Positions 30,221 to 33,037 of a stretch of 64,000 bases of DNA are shown here, in pieces. The translations under genes were made by a program, and so were the position numbers. Location of the stretch: the UHGV virus genome UHGV-1362809; one strand, given 5' to 3'. The number at the start of each line of letters is the position of its first letter. The stretch's first letter is position 1. The notes beneath the pieces are model-generated. The model made no database searches. It saw only the letters and a program-made list of their open reading frames with translations, and was not told the DNA's origin. The DNA comes from a virus.

Positions 30221-33037
30221 TTAAAAGTCTTCTTCGTCAAAATCGTCATCATCCGAATCATCTACGTCAATGTCTACTGCATTAATGAATTTTTTGTATT
30301 CTCCGGATTCAATTTGTTCAAAACATTTAGCTCTAAGGTTTGGTTTGATACCGAGTTTTTTAATTTCGGCTTTTAATTCCTTATTACCAAATACTTCTGC
30401 AAGTATCAGTTTTTTGAATGTTAGCCAATCTAACTCAACCCCTTCAAAACCTTTGATATTTACACTAAACTTTTTACGGCGTTCACCATCATACTGTCCT
30501 GTTTCGTATAAATATGCCCAAGTATCAAATACAGGGTCTATGCCTCTACCTTTACCATTACCGTCCTTGAACCAAATACGCTGGTATCCCATTTTAAATG
30601 GTGTACCCTTTTTGTTTTTGGTATTTACAATTTTTTTATACTGATATTTATCAGTACCTCCAGCTACTTCAACGGAATCCTCTTCGCCTTCACTCGTTGA
30701 ATCACCCTTATCCCAAGTACCCATTTTTACCGATGTAACAGCAATCGAGGTAAATTCACAGCGTACGTCACTATTATGGGATACTATACCATTAACAACA
30801 ACAGTATGAGATTTTGGCATATTAAAATCGCAGACATAACGGGAGGATACCAATTCAGATTTTTTAAAGGAATCCCACATTATTTTATTTTTAATACTAT
30901 AGGAACACAAGTTCAAAATAGAATTAAGAATTTCTACGTTTTTAACTCTCTCTTGTTCAGTTCTTAAACCAGAGATATAAAACAAATAGTCCTTTTTATT
31001 AGACATTAAATCTCTCATGTCTAAATGACGTATATGTTTTTTACCAGTATCTACATATTCAAAAATATACTTAAATATTTTTGATTTTCTAACAGTATAG
31101 CTGATACAGTCTACGGGGAAGATATATTTTATATCTTTCCCTGTTGTTTTAAGACCTTTTCTTCTCTCTATAATCTTTCTTTTTCTAGCGGTCATACAAC
31201 CAACAGTGTCATAAAACAAAGTTAAATTATAACCGTATAGCGACAAACCAGCATATTTTGTTCTATTATCCTCTGGGGTATGCCAACTGTTGTTAAAGTA
31301 GATCTTTCTACCGCAAATTCCCATGTTTAACAAAAGCAGATGTATTTGGTCCACCATTTGTCTACTCGCAAGGGCTATTGAATACTGCTTATCTCCAAAA
31401 CTTCCTTCACAGTCCATAAAACAACGCAGAAAATCAATAACATACTCTTTTGGAGCAGTCATAATCAACTCAGGAACTTGTTTTCTTCTTGCCGGCTCAT
31501 TCCCCGAACATTTTTGTATTAAAAACTGTCTAAACCAAGCTGATCTTATTTCTACATAGTAGACATATTTTCTACCAAGATTGTCCTTACTATAAAGTTT
31601 TTTTATTTTATAGGGAAGTCTTAATTTATTACAGCAATACACAATATCATCAATTATCTCTTTATCTTTATTAACTACAGAACATACGTATTCCCTACAA
31701 AAACCCTCGGCTAATACATAACCAAGCAATCGTGCCAATTCGTGAGTTAGTTTTTTTGGATAATTTTTTATTTCTGTCTTAGAATAAACTAACTTGTCAT
31801 TAAACGGTTCAAAGTTAAGGGACGTATTATTTCCCCACACGTTATAACCATACTTAATAGGAATGAAATGTTTACTATTTAAGGAGGATAAACAAGTCCA
31901 TTGACTATCCAAAGTATTTTTTCTTTCTTGTTTACAAATAGTTTTAACTCTATGAGACAAACTACCTGTCATAGAATACCCAAGAGAAGTTGTTATAGTG
32001 AGACAAGCTTTCTTACCAAAATTTTTATAAAGTGCGGGCTTCTCCTTACCAATTTCAGAAAGGACACACCCATCTTTATAATCCCTACCTCGTATAATGC
32101 CTTTACTGGTAAAAATATAGTCATTTTCATCAAAGCAAAAGTATTTCAGCGCATTACCGCAGGGTTCCGTTGTTGGTTTCCCATACATAACCATCGGTTT
32201 ATCCCTTAACTGATTTACACCATAGATAACACAATGTTTACGTCTTAGCAACCCTTTTATTTGAGGAACCCATTTACCGTACTCACGAGCTTGTAGAGCT
32301 ACACCCGAACTATCTTTATCCTCATCTTCTCCAATGTCTTCTGGTATAAATGCTGGGTAGGAGTCTAGCATAAACACAGCTTGAAAGTCAGGACTATCAA
32401 CAGGACACCAAACTTGCTTTCTCGATTTGTCAGCTCCTTTTAAACCCAAAGTATTCATCATCTTGACATGGGTCTTACGACTTGGGTCAAATACCAAATA
32501 CCACTGGTCTTTTTCTTTTTTGTACTTTTTATCGGGCAAATTAAGAAGACGCTCTTTAATTACACCGAACACCTTTTCCATTGTGGTATCGTCATAGTAA
32601 CGAGCGCAACCGTATTTTTCCGTTTTTCCTTTTTCATTTTTTAACCCAAAAATGTCGGATAAATCTGCAACCCTACAAATTGCAGGCGTATAAGTACCGT
32701 CAACAGAACCTTCCCCGTCAAAATAATAACAGGGAATATTATGTCTTACACACTCGCCCAAAAACGAAATACAGTTCGTGGATTTTGATGAAGCTTCACC
32801 CCCAAGCAATGTGTACCAACCACTACTAACACCGCCACCATAAACTATATTAAGCACCAAGCTATCAGCAGGTAGGCGATAAGGTATATCAATAGAAGAG
32901 CCAATACCGACATTACGTTCAATCGTTTCGATATCCTGCATAGCATACTGAGCAAACTTCTGCTGAAACGACAACTCGACGGGAGCTTCCTTTTTAGGAG
33001 ATACCTTAACTTTTTTCTCTTTAACTTTTTTAGCCAT
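30221..33037 (-). CDS. RecA/UvsX-family recombinase interrupted by a ~455-aa intein carrying a LAGLIDADG homing endonuclease
   Basis: Exteins: LLGGEASSKST (P-loop), VDSPDFQAVFMLDS, ...TTEPCGNALKYF | SDVRCEF... (~RecA [19 protein letters not shown]), acidic C-terminus. Intein: CFDENDYIFT...VVVNGIVSHN with LARLLGYVLAEGF and DFLRCFMDCEGSF LAGLIDADG motifs. Confidence 0.85.
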   Translation of the reverse strand: MAKKVKEKKVKVSPKKEAPVELSFQQKFAQYAMQDIETIERNVGIGSSIDIPYRLPADSLVLNIVYGGGVSSGWYTLLGGEASSKSTNCISFLGECVRHNIPCYYFDGEGSVDGTYTPAICRVADLSDIFGLKNEKGKTEKYGCARYYDDTTMEKVFGVIKERLLNLPDKKYKKEKDQWYLVFDPSRKTHVKMMNTLGLKGADKSRKQVWCPVDSPDFQAVFMLDSYPAFIPEDIGEDEDKDSSGVALQAREYGKWVPQIKGLLRRKHCVIYGVNQLRDKPMVMYGKPTTEPCGNALKYFCFDENDYIFTSKGIIRGRDYKDGCVLSEIGKEKPALYKNFGKKACLTITTSLGYSMTGSLSHRVKTICKQERKNTLDSQWTCLSSLNSKHFIPIKYGYNVWGNNTSLNFEPFNDKLVYSKTEIKNYPKKLTHELARLLGYVLAEGFCREYVCSVVNKDKEIIDDIVYCCNKLRLPYKIKKLYSKDNLGRKYVYYVEIRSAWFRQFLIQKCSGNEPARRKQVPELIMTAPKEYVIDFLRCFMDCEGSFGDKQYSIALASRQMVDQIHLLLLNMGICGRKIYFNNSWHTPEDNRTKYAGLSLYGYNLTLFYDTVGCMTARKRKIIERRKGLKTTGKDIKYIFPVDCISYTVRKSKIFKYIFEYVDTGKKHIRHLDMRDLMSNKKDYLFYISGLRTEQERVKNVEILNSILNLCSYSIKNKIMWDSFKKSELVSSRYVCDFNMPKSHTVVVNGIVSHNSDVRCEFTSIAVTSVKMGTWDKGDSTSEGEEDSVEVAGGTDKYQYKKIVNTKNKKGTPFKMGYQRIWFKDGNGKGRGIDPVFDTWAYLYETGQYDGERRKKFSVNIKGFEGVELDWLTFKKLILAEVFGNKELKAEIKKLGIKPNLRAKCFEQIESGEYKKFINAVDIDVDDSDDDDFDEEDF
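30773..32137 (-). mobile_element. intein with LAGLIDADG homing endonuclease inside the recombinase gene (approximate boundaries)
   Basis: Starts with Cys after ALKYF; ends in HN followed by Ser; two LAGLIDADG motifs. Confidence 0.75.

What the first reader, a model, noticed from the sequence alone, without database searches (positions are those of the whole stretch)
30221..33037. RecA/UvsX-like recombinase carrying a full LAGLIDADG intein
The 938-aa ORF has a RecA-like N-terminus (P-loop GGEASSKST) and C-terminus (…NKKGTPFKMGYQRIWF…, acidic tail). These are separated by ~455 aa that begin CFDENDYIFT right after …TTEPCGNALKYF (RecA [10 protein letters not shown]) and end …VVVNGIVSHN before Ser. 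This insert contains two LAGLIDADG motifs (LARLLGYVLAEGF; DFLRCFMDCEGSF). This is a third, differently organised intein in the same replication/recombination module: a cis-intein with LAGLIDADG, versus split inteins with Vsr-like HEGs elsewhere. It indicates repeated independent invasions.
Basis: partly seen in the sequence, partly recalled or inferred. Interest (0 to 1): 0.55.

Follow-up and report, generated by a model that had tools for sequence, protein, structure and literature searches.

The report
LAGLIDADG intein in phage RecA-like recombinase

Summary
ORF 30221..33037 (minus strand, 938 aa) is a RecA-family recombinase. Residues 301-755 (window 30773..32137) form a 455-aa class-1 intein with a two-motif LAGLIDADG endonuclease domain.

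The decisive evidence is a 97.5%-identical metagenomic allele (P0003, contig L004). It lacks exactly these 455 codons and reads ...GNALKYF|SDVRCEF... without a break. All splicing residues are present: Cys1, block-B His, block-F Asp and His, terminal His-Asn, and Ser at +1. Both LAGLIDADG acidic residues and the block-D Lys are also present. An AlphaFold model (pLDDT 83) matches solved endonuclease-containing inteins end to end (TliVMA, PI-PfuI, PI-PkoII, PI-SceI).

The insertion point corresponds to E. coli RecA Tyr218/Ser220, just after loop L2. This differs from the three other RecA-family intein sites seen here, and, from my memory, from the two mycobacterial RecA sites.

The intein belongs to a site-specific lineage. 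At least 12 metagenomic recombinases and 8 large IMG/VR contigs carry homologous inteins (27-36% identity) at the same site. Cultured Erwinia jumbo phages carry an unannotated insert there with a different central domain.

Two unrelated split inteins lie elsewhere in the window.

Verdict: a real, ordinary new member of a known kind. Splicing and cleavage are inferred, not shown.

The parts
30221..33037 (-). Precursor gene: a RecA-family ('UvsX-like') recombinase interrupted by an intein. 938 aa, 107.9 kDa.
   Evidence: ORF list. Pfam RecA and LAGLIDADG_3. PHROG 97. Masses. The start Met-Ala-Lys-Lys is shared with homologues.
32138..33037 (-). N-extein, aa 1-300. It contains the Walker A variant GGEASSKST (aa 79-87), Walker B ...VFMLDSYPAF, and the L2-loop region NQLRDKPMVMYGKPTTEPCGNALKYF.
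   Evidence: Alignment to E. coli RecA chains: query 221-301 against chain 141-220 of 2rec. Boundary set by the intein-less alleles.
30773..32137 (-). Intein, aa 301-755 (455 aa, 53.2 kDa, pI 9.4). It runs from Cys1 to His-Asn. GC is 31.6%, against 38.5% in the exteins.
   Evidence: Exact 1365-nt gap relative to L004. Coordinates and GC. Intein profile match. AF2 model and Foldseek.
31808..32137 (-). N-terminal part of the Hint (splicing) domain, intein residues 1 to about 110. Block A is Cys1 (CFDENDYIFT). Block B is GSLSHRV, with His62 and Ser in place of the usual Thr.
   Evidence: Invariant columns C1, T10, G13 and H62 in the same-site intein alignment. Beta strands 7-95 in the model.
31148..31765 (-). 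LAGLIDADG homing-endonuclease domain, intein residues about 125-330. It includes block D (K219-Q-V-P222) and the LLLLNMGI motif.
   Evidence: Pfam LAGLIDADG_3 at 3.6e-11. PDB sequence hits to V-ATPase inteins and PI-PkoII over aa 425-580. Structural matches to I-DmoI, I-Tsp061I and PI-SceI.
31700..31738 (-). LAGLIDADG motif 1, LARLLGYVLAEGF (aa 434-446). The candidate catalytic residue is Glu144 in intein numbering.
   Evidence: Sequence. This position is acidic in all aligned same-site inteins, and G139 and G145 are invariant. It lies in helix 132-144 of the model.
31397..31435 (-). LAGLIDADG motif 2, DFLRCFMDCEGSF (aa 535-547). The candidate catalytic residue is Glu244 in intein numbering.
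   Evidence: Sequence. Alignment. It lies in helix 230-244 of the model.
30890..31147 (-). Helical region between the endonuclease core and the C-terminal splicing blocks, intein residues about 331-416. It carries the lineage-specific motif LRTEQER. Its function was not tested.
   Evidence: Helices 347-416 in the model. The R-T-x-x-E-R motif is conserved in 10 of the 13 same-site inteins.
30773..30889 (-). C-terminal part of the Hint domain, intein residues about 417-455. Block F is YVCDFNMPKSHT (Asp437, His444). Block G is VVVNGIVSHN (His454, Asn455).
   Evidence: D437, H454 and N455 are invariant. Strands 419-454 in the model. The profile match ends exactly at residue 755.
30221..30772 (-). 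C-extein, aa 756-938 plus the stop codon. It starts with the +1 nucleophile Ser756 (SDVRCEF...) and ends in an acidic tail.
   Evidence: 98% nucleotide identity to L004 from the junction onward. Alignment.

Best explanation
The gene encodes a 107.9-kDa precursor of a RecA-family recombinase from an uncultured phage of about 237 kb. A 455-aa class-1 intein sits between Phe300 and Ser756.

Inferred splicing mechanism, which is standard intein chemistry:
1. Cys301 makes an N-to-S acyl shift.
2. The Ser756 hydroxyl attacks the thioester and forms a branched intermediate.
3. Asn755 cyclises, helped by His754, and releases the intein.
4. An O-to-N shift seals the Phe300-Ser756 bond. This gives the 483-aa (54.8-kDa) recombinase, whose junction is identical to that of the intein-less allele.

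Until splicing occurs, the recombinase core is interrupted right after loop L2, at the position of E. coli RecA Tyr218/Ser220. It should be inactive in that state.

The released 53-kDa intein is a monomeric two-motif LAGLIDADG endonuclease. In a co-infection it would cut the uninterrupted allele across the junction ...GCGCTGAAATACTTT|TCTGACGTACGCTGT.... Repair from the intein-bearing copy would then copy in the intein along with some flanking sequence. This process is called homing.

Shown here: the exact in-frame insertion, the intein and LAGLIDADG sequence and fold, retention of all catalytic residues, and an empty allele in a near-identical phage.

Inferred: that splicing and DNA cleavage actually occur.
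For: Exact insertion:
- P0003 (485 aa, 97.5% identical) and P0004 (81.5%) lack exactly aa 301-755.
- At DNA level, L004 matches the window up to 32137 and resumes at 30770-30772. The gap is 1365 nt.

Intein identity:
- Pfam LAGLIDADG_3 43.6 bits (cut-off 22.5) and RecA 52.6 bits (cut-off 27).
- An independent intein profile matches aa 340-755 at 159 bits and ends on His-Asn755.
- An intein-family profile (alignment A2, which includes this intein) finds the solved inteins 7qss (2.4e-33), PI-PkoII, PI-PfuI, DnaB, GyrA and RadA mini-inteins, PI-MtuI and PI-SceI.
- The AF2 model has pLDDT 83 and pTM 0.87. Foldseek top hits are TliVMA intein at 8.8e-22, then PI-PfuI, PI-PkoII, PhoVMA and PI-SceI, followed by I-DmoI-type LAGLIDADG enzymes.

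Catalytic residues:
- C1, H62, D437, H454, N455, K219 and P222 are invariant in the same-site family. Residue 144 is acidic in all aligned members and residue 244 in most of them.

Mobility signals:
- Distribution is patchy. The nearest extein relatives lack the intein, while relatives with 34-42% extein identity carry homologous inteins of 27-36% identity at the same site.
- Intein GC is 31.6% against 38.5% in the exteins.
- Divergence from the empty allele peaks next to the insertion point. It is 10% in the 100 nt upstream and 6% in the 100 nt downstream, against 1.5-4% further out.
Against: - No experiment was done. Splicing and endonuclease activity are inferred from conserved residues only.
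- Pfam Intein_splicing is below its gathering score for this protein (15.4 against 35.8 bits).
- The single-sequence AF2 run was uninformative (pLDDT 36.6). The confident model depends on a 12-sequence alignment of same-site inteins.
- The block-B Thr is replaced by Ser. This position is Lys or Arg in most relatives.
- The co-conversion-like tract was picked out after seeing the data. The 5' third of the gene is also divergent for unrelated reasons.
- The nearest intein relative is only about 33-36% identical (33%, 35.6%), so no recent donor is known. The presence/absence polymorphism could equally reflect precise loss by recombination with an empty allele.
Confidence: 0.9

Rival explanations
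1. The intein splices, but its endonuclease is no longer active. This would be a late stage of the homing cycle, with the element persisting only because precise loss is rare.
For: - Many inteins carry decayed endonucleases.
- Some same-site relatives have degenerate second motifs: P0018 FSGDDG, P0019 FTGDIS, P0081 FGGDAS.
- The Erwinia-phage versions have no LAGLIDADG domain at all.
- No close (>36% identity) donor intein was found among 1.84 billion cluster representatives.
Against: - This copy keeps both acidic residues (E144, E244), the glycines of both motifs and the block-D Lys219.
- An empty allele exists in a 91-98% identical phage genome, with divergence peaking at the insertion point. 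That fits recent movement.
Confidence: 0.3
2. The intein is also used by the phage as a post-translational switch. Recombinase activity would appear only when conditions such as redox state, metal ions or temperature allow splicing.
For: - The intein sits at a functionally critical spot, directly after L2.
- The same site is occupied across a deep lineage of large phages.
- Conditional splicing has been argued for RadA and DnaB inteins (PMC4760082, PMC4513877).
Against: - Nothing in the sequence shows it.
- The upstream Cys in EPCG is present in intein-less alleles as well.
- Near-identical phages do without the intein (P0003), so it is dispensable.
Confidence: 0.1
3. The 455 aa are a native, non-excised accessory domain of this recombinase family, or the ORF is an assembly chimera.
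For: Large insertions do occur in phage RecA-like proteins. The GenBank records of related Erwinia phages annotate their 830-843-aa proteins simply as 'UvsX-like recombinase'.
Against: - The insert is absent, precisely to the codon, from 97.5% and 81.5% identical alleles.
- It has the Hint plus LAGLIDADG fold, and every splicing residue sits at the exact boundaries.
- The identical protein is found on four independent contigs of 0.2-1 Mb.
Confidence: 0.02

Closest known systems
Archaeal endonuclease-containing inteins: TliVMA/PhoVMA (PDB 7qss, 7qsu, 7qst), PI-PfuI (1dq3), PI-PkoII (2cw7), and yeast PI-SceI (1vde, 1lws)
   Same: Same architecture: a Hint splicing domain split by a two-motif LAGLIDADG endonuclease domain plus an extra region. 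These are the best structural matches to the model (E 8.8e-22 to 1e-9, TM 0.43-0.62). They are also the best sequence-profile matches.
   Different: Only 10-15% sequence identity. The host proteins are different (V-ATPase, ribonucleotide reductase, DNA polymerase). They come from archaea and yeast, not a phage.
Mycobacterial RecA inteins (PI-MtuI of M. tuberculosis; the M. leprae RecA intein)
   Same: Class-1 LAGLIDADG inteins interrupting the RecA ATPase core. RecA is one of the most frequent intein hosts in bacteria (56 inteins counted in PMC4760082).
   Different: The insertion sites differ. This one aligns to E. coli Tyr218/Ser220. From my own knowledge, not re-checked here, PI-MtuI lies after Lys251 with Cys at +1, and the M. 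leprae intein lies in loop L2 after Gly205. PI-MtuI matches the intein profile only over blocks F and G.
Same-site inteins in metagenomic phage recombinases (P0016, P0018, P0019, P0022, P0023, P0025-27, P0038, P0041, P0046, P0081; IMG/VR loci L012-L018, L037)
   Same: Identical insertion point (ALK[FLY][YFN]|C...SHN|SD.R). They align end to end, including lineage-specific motifs such as LRTEQER, and have the same domain order. This is the family the window's intein belongs to.
   Different: Only 27-36% identical to this copy. None is annotated or, as far as my literature searches show, described.
P-loop inteins of phage RecA (Bacillus phage fHSPT3, Escherichia phage Cyrano) and of cellular RadA/Sms
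   Same: LAGLIDADG_3-type inteins in RecA-family ATPases, at 21-25% identity to this intein.
   Different: They are inserted in the Walker A motif (GxxGxGK|C...HN|S/T), about 200 residues upstream of the site used here.
'Fractured genes' with split inteins and free-standing Vsr-like endonucleases (Dassa et al. 2009, PMC2677866)
   Same: The same window holds this arrangement in an SF2 helicase, and a split intein in NrdD. Some relatives of this recombinase are themselves fractured by a split intein at FEG|S (P0018 and P0026).
   Different: The element studied here is a contiguous cis-splicing intein with an internal LAGLIDADG domain. It is not a split intein.

Membership tests
Intein (Hint-domain protein-splicing element, class 1) | In-frame insertion that is absent, to the codon, from orthologous host proteins. 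| tested here: met
   P0003 (97.5% identical) and P0004 (81.5%) read GNALK[YF]F|SDVRCEF without aa 301-755. At DNA level the gap is 1365 nt.
Intein (Hint-domain protein-splicing element, class 1) | Nucleophile (Cys or Ser) as the first intein residue, and Ser, Thr or Cys as the first C-extein residue. | tested here: met
   Cys301 and Ser756. C1 is invariant in the same-site family.
Intein (Hint-domain protein-splicing element, class 1) | Block B with a T-x-x-H motif. | tested here: met
   His62 is invariant. The Thr position is Ser here (S-L-S-H) and Lys or Arg in most same-site relatives. This is a tolerated variation, but a deviation from the consensus.
Intein (Hint-domain protein-splicing element, class 1) | Blocks F and G: conserved Asp and His, and a terminal His-Asn. 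| tested here: met
   YVCDFNMPKSHTVVVNGIVSHN. D437, H454 and N455 are invariant. The profile match ends on Asn755.
Intein (Hint-domain protein-splicing element, class 1) | Hint fold. | tested here: met
   The AF2 model (pLDDT 83) aligns over its whole length with solved inteins 7qss, 1dq3, 2cw7 and PI-SceI. Pfam Intein_splicing alone is sub-threshold (15.4 against 35.8 bits).
Intein (Hint-domain protein-splicing element, class 1) | Autocatalytic excision and ligation of the exteins. | not testable with these tools
   Needs expression and SDS-PAGE or mass spectrometry. Predicted products are 54.8 kDa and 53.2 kDa from a 107.9-kDa precursor.
LAGLIDADG homing endonuclease (monomeric, two-motif) | Two LAGLIDADG helices, each ending in an acidic residue followed by Gly. 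| tested here: met
   LLGYVLAEG (E144) and FMDCEG (E244). They lie in helices 132-144 and 230-244 of the model. Position 144 is acidic in all aligned same-site inteins and position 244 in most of them.
LAGLIDADG homing endonuclease (monomeric, two-motif) | Match to a curated family model above its threshold, and the characteristic fold. | tested here: met
   Pfam LAGLIDADG_3 at 43.6 bits against 22.5, in 2 stretches. Foldseek hits to I-DmoI, I-Tsp061I, WhiA and bI3 maturase over about 200 residues.
LAGLIDADG homing endonuclease (monomeric, two-motif) | Site-specific cleavage of the intein-less allele. | not testable with these tools
   The candidate substrate is known from L004: GGTAATGCGCTGAAATACTTT|TCTGACGTACGCTGTGAATTT.
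RecA-family recombinase (bacterial RecA / phage 'UvsX-like') | RecA ATPase core matching the curated model. This includes the Walker A and B motifs, the catalytic Glu and the L2 region. | tested here: met
   - Pfam RecA at 52.6 bits against 27.
- PDB RecA hits over aa 47-118 and 221-301.
- E109, D225, Q219, K85 and others are invariant among homologues.
- Walker A reads GGEASSKS, with Ser where the canonical motif has Gly before Lys. The family shares this deviation, with Ser, Cys or Ala at that position.
RecA-family recombinase (bacterial RecA / phage 'UvsX-like') | Specific relationship to T4 UvsX. | tested here: inconclusive
   PHROG 97 carries the name 'UvsX-like' (2.6e-31). However, phmmer against all PDB chains finds RecA and no T4 UvsX at E <= 1. 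It is best called RecA-like.
Allele of the known mycobacterial RecA inteins | Same insertion site as, and close sequence similarity to, PI-MtuI or the M. leprae RecA intein. | tested here: not met
   The site aligns to E. coli Tyr218/Ser220. It is not Lys251 or Gly205; those two positions are from my own knowledge. PI-MtuI matches only blocks F and G. An L2-site intein, as I recall for M. leprae, occurs in a different relative, P0012 (VKYG|C...VHN|SNESEPGG).

The most novel reading that the evidence does not exclude
The Tyr218/Ser220-equivalent site of large-phage RecA-like recombinases may be a long-lived intein 'slot' in which the central domain is exchangeable. The window carries the LAGLIDADG version. 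Cultured Erwinia jumbo phages (Y3, pEa_SNUABM_3) and the record named Alcaligenes phage Afa-NA1 carry, between the same splicing blocks, a ~230-aa central domain with no detectable relative. That domain could be a new homing-nuclease family or a regulatory module. In that case the slot as a whole could act as a splicing-controlled switch of phage recombination.
Probability: 0.12. Interest if true: 0.55.

Novelty: new member of a known kind. Interest (0 to 1): 0.3.

Why it matters
For annotation: the gene should be recorded as a recombinase precursor with an intein at aa 301-755. The recombinases of several cultured Erwinia jumbo phages should be re-annotated in the same way.

For intein biology:
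- It adds a well-defined insertion site in RecA-family proteins, directly after loop L2.
- It provides a natural intein-plus / intein-minus allele pair at 91-98% DNA identity. This hands an experimenter both the enzyme and its presumed target.
- It shows one 64-kb stretch of a phage replication and recombination module carrying three unrelated inteins of three organisations: cis with LAGLIDADG, split with a free-standing nuclease gene, and split without one.

None of this changes what is known about how inteins work.

Tried and rejected
- Single-sequence AlphaFold of the intein gave pLDDT 36.6. It was useless and was discarded.
- The search for homologous proteins with the intein alone, and then with the 12-sequence profile, returned only 2-3 hits. 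The exhaustive representative search was needed to find the same-site family.
- I considered whether the +1 Ser codon difference (AGT here, TCT in the empty allele) marks nuclease-target immunity. I rejected this: AGT and TCT occur in both intein-containing and intein-less relatives.
- I tested whether the Erwinia-phage inserts are simply divergent LAGLIDADG inteins. Only blocks A and F/G match. The centre has no Pfam, PHROG or PDB sequence hit.
- I looked for the same-site intein in 185,579 species-representative genomes. The relatives found there sit in RadA/Sms, DnaB and AAA proteins, not in RecA at this site. This scan is pattern-based, so absence is weak evidence.
- Megablast of the gene against GenBank phages found nothing.
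- Literature searches for UvsX/RecA inteins in jumbo or Erwinia phages found no description of this site. Searches for the mycobacterial site nomenclature found nothing in the held library, so those positions are quoted from memory.
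Full report
**1. The observation**

The ORF listing returns a single 938-aa ORF at 30221..33037 on the minus strand.
- The P-loop-like GGEASSKST at aa 79-87.
- ...TTEPCGNALKYF ending at aa 300.
- CFDENDYIFT from aa 301.
- ...VVVNGIVSHN ending at aa 755, followed by Ser756.
- The two LAGLIDADG-type motifs at aa 434-446 and 535-547.

The insert is 455 aa, at window 30773..32137. Its GC content is 31.6%, against 38.5% for the flanking coding sequence.

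**2. Host protein**

- Pfam RecA scores 52.6 bits (cut-off 27).
- PHROG 97, 'UvsX-like recombinase', matches at 2.6e-31.
- A sequence search of all PDB chains finds bacterial RecA over aa 47-118 and aa 221-301.
- The RecA alignment runs NQLRDKPMVMYGKPTTEPCGNALKYF against [26 protein letters not shown]. It stops at the first one or two residues of the insert.
- The last N-extein residue, Phe300, therefore aligns with E. coli Tyr218. Cys301 takes the place of Ala219, and Ser756 corresponds to Ser220. This numbering is for mature RecA and is derived from chain 2rec positions 141-221.
- T4 UvsX is not among the PDB hits, so 'RecA-like' is the safer name.
- Gene order is a sigma-factor-like ORF, an acidic-tailed SSB-like ORF, the recombinase, two small ORFs, then family-A DNA polymerase. 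The upstream part (sigma factor, SSB, recombinase) matches Erwinia jumbo phages, and metagenomic contig L005 shows the whole order through to the family-A polymerase.
- The identical protein is encoded on four contigs of 0.2-1 Mb. The one shown is 237,192 bp.

**3. The decisive comparison**

I searched the spliced extein (483 aa) against 5.8 billion proteins.
- It finds P0003 (485 aa, 97.5% identical), P0004 (492 aa, 81.5%) and further relatives of 473-520 aa (identities).
- In the alignment, all of these lack exactly aa 301-755 and read GNALK[YF]F-SDVRCEF without a break.
- At DNA level, contig L004, which encodes P0003, matches the window at 91.4% up to position 32137 and at 98.0% from 30770 onward.
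- Nothing lies between these two matches in L004, whereas the window has 1365 nt there.

This settles the boundaries to the codon. It also excludes a native RecA domain.

**4. The insert is an intein with a LAGLIDADG endonuclease**

Sequence evidence:
- Pfam LAGLIDADG_3 is well above threshold, at 43.6 against 22.5 bits. Pfam Intein_splicing alone is below threshold.
- A profile built from seven other phage inteins, without this one, matches aa 340-755 at 159 bits and ends precisely on His-Asn755.
- A profile that includes this intein finds solved inteins end to end. These are TliVMA 7qss at 2.4e-33, PI-PkoII, PI-PfuI, mini-inteins of DnaB, GyrA and RadA, PI-MtuI and PI-SceI.
- All canonical residues are present: Cys1, block-B His62 (S-L-S-H, with Ser for the usual Thr), block-F Asp437 and His444, His454-Asn455, and Ser at +1.
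- In the endonuclease part, Glu144 and Glu244 close the two LAGLIDADG helices, and block D reads K219-Q-V-P222.

Structural evidence:
- AlphaFold without an alignment failed (pLDDT 36.6).
- With a 12-sequence alignment of same-site inteins, it gave pLDDT 83 and pTM 0.87.
- Foldseek against the PDB ranks endonuclease-containing inteins first: 7qss at 8.8e-22, then 7qsu, 1dq3, 2cw7, 7qst and PI-SceI. Free-standing LAGLIDADG enzymes follow.

**5. Relatives of the intein**

- An exhaustive phmmer search of 1.84 billion cluster representatives finds 1791 relatives at E <= 1e-3.
- The window's own protein is in that collection (P0015, 100% identical). The next best hit is only 33% identical.
- Twelve of the best hits are the same recombinase family with an intein at the same point, ALK[FLY][YFN]|C[FM]...SHN|SD.R.
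- All thirteen align end to end, including lineage-specific stretches such as LRTEQER.
- Their inteins are 27-36% identical to this one, and their exteins 34-42% identical.
- A scan of IMG/VR finds eight viral contigs of 82-320 kb with the same arrangement.
- A scan of one genome per GTDB species finds relatives only in other hosts: the RadA/Sms P-loop, DnaB and AAA proteins of Chloroflexi, CPR bacteria and haloarchaea.

So this is one member of an old, site-specific intein lineage that so far appears restricted to phages.

The recombinase family is invaded at several other sites:
- The L2 loop in P0012 (VKYG|C...VHN|SNESEPGG, with a LAGLIDADG_2 domain).
- A split intein at FEG|S in P0018 and P0026.
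- The Walker A lysine in RecA of Bacillus phage fHSPT3 and Escherichia phage Cyrano.

**6. Signs of mobility**

- The closest extein relatives lack the intein, while more distant ones have it.
- The intein is AT-richer than its host gene.
- Divergence between the window and the empty allele L004 is 10% in the 100 nt upstream of the insertion point and 6% in the 100 nt downstream. Further out it is 1.5-4%.
- There are 10 differences in the 71 nt from -90 to -20, all at positions that are multiples of three from the junction, which are third codon positions. The binomial p is 6.5e-6.
- I chose that window after seeing the data. The 5' third of the gene is also divergent. I therefore treat this as suggestive of a co-conversion tract and not as proof.
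- The AGT/TCT difference in the +1 Ser codon carries no signal. Both codons occur with and without an intein.

**7. Mechanism**

The mechanism is inferred from established intein and LAGLIDADG biochemistry.
- Splicing would proceed by an N-S acyl shift at Cys301, transesterification to Ser756, cyclisation of Asn755 assisted by His754, and an O-N shift.
- The products would be a 54.8-kDa recombinase and a 53.2-kDa intein from a 107.9-kDa precursor.
- The insertion interrupts the ATPase core immediately after L2. From my knowledge of RecA, this region (Lys216, Phe217, Arg222) forms the subunit interface. The precursor should therefore be inactive.
- The free intein would cleave the uninterrupted allele in a co-infecting phage, and recombinational repair would then copy the intein in.

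**8. Context in the window**

- An SF2 helicase is fractured into three ORFs: 20377..21399 (N part plus N-terminal intein half), 19373..20416 (an ORF with a REase_MTES_1575 / Vsr-like domain), and 17982..19379 (C-terminal intein half plus helicase).
- NrdD is fractured into 7472..8293 and 5715..7415, with only 56 nt and no nuclease gene between the halves.
- The helicase locus matches the 'fractured gene' arrangement of Dassa et al. 2009 (PMC2677866).
- The three inteins share no significant sequence similarity.

**9. Comparison with what is known, and novelty**

- RecA is a classic intein host (PMC4760082). LAGLIDADG inteins are textbook elements, and phage replication and recombination genes are known intein hot spots.
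- What is specific here is the insertion site. It differs from the mycobacterial sites as I remember them, and from the P-loop site.
- Also specific are the existence of a coherent phage lineage at that site, and the availability of an empty allele.
- My literature searches found no description of inteins in these jumbo-phage recombinases. The GenBank records call the 830-843-aa Erwinia phage proteins simply 'UvsX-like recombinase'.

I rate it a new member of a known kind, with interest 0.3.

Noticed in passing
L001:2911-5403 (Erwinia phage vB_EamM_Y3), L002:2791-5322 (pEa_SNUABM_3), L003:2887-5355 (Alcaligenes phage Afa-NA1): The 'UvsX-like recombinase' or 'RecA' of these cultured phages (822-843 aa) carries an unannotated ~342-aa insert at the same site (EALKFY|CF..DT...SHN|SDVR). 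Blocks A, B and F/G look intein-like. The ~230-aa centre has no LAGLIDADG motif and no Pfam, PHROG or PDB sequence match. It may be an intein with an unknown or decayed central domain.
   Followed up: partly
window 17982..21399 (-): An SF2 (ResIII/SNF2-like) helicase is split into two ORFs by a split intein at its P-loop (...RSGK|CQVYDT... and ...ANGLISHN|TVMS...). A 347-aa ORF lies between them (19373..20416), and its C-terminus matches REase_MTES_1575, a Vsr-like nuclease fold. This is the 'fractured gene' layout of Dassa et al. 2009.
   Followed up: partly
window 5715..8293 (-): Anaerobic ribonucleotide reductase NrdD is split by a split intein. ORF 7472..8293 holds the ATP-cone, the NrdD start and the N-terminal intein half. 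ORF 5715..7415 holds the C-terminal intein half (...GLFVHN|CAGW) and NrdD. Only 56 nt lie between them, and there is no endonuclease gene.
   Followed up: partly
P0018 and P0026 (metagenomic homologues of the recombinase): These proteins start with a C-terminal split-intein piece (...NGIITHN|SSSPDYIEN...). They also contain the cis-intein at the ALKF site. In some phages, therefore, the same recombinase gene is both fractured at FEG|S and interrupted downstream.
   Followed up: no
window 16718..17962 (-) and 24053..25243 (-): Two paralogous ORFs (414 and 396 aa) match Pfam DUF7487 (1.8e-16 and 2.1e-22). They sit on either side of the helicase region. Their function is unknown.
   Followed up: no
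window 29511..29921 (-) and 33094..34305 (-): The ORFs flanking the recombinase contain very long runs of Asp/Glu. The 136-aa ORF also has KKAPA repeats, and the 403-aa SSB-like ORF has an acidic/lysine-rich C-terminal half. These runs give strong AT skew and many spurious overlapping ORFs on the other strand.
   Followed up: no
window 38607..42102 (-): A GARS-like ATP-grasp ORF and a QueC-like ORF fused to a glutamine amidotransferase domain lie upstream of the replication module. This may indicate 7-deazaguanine-type DNA modification genes.
   Followed up: no
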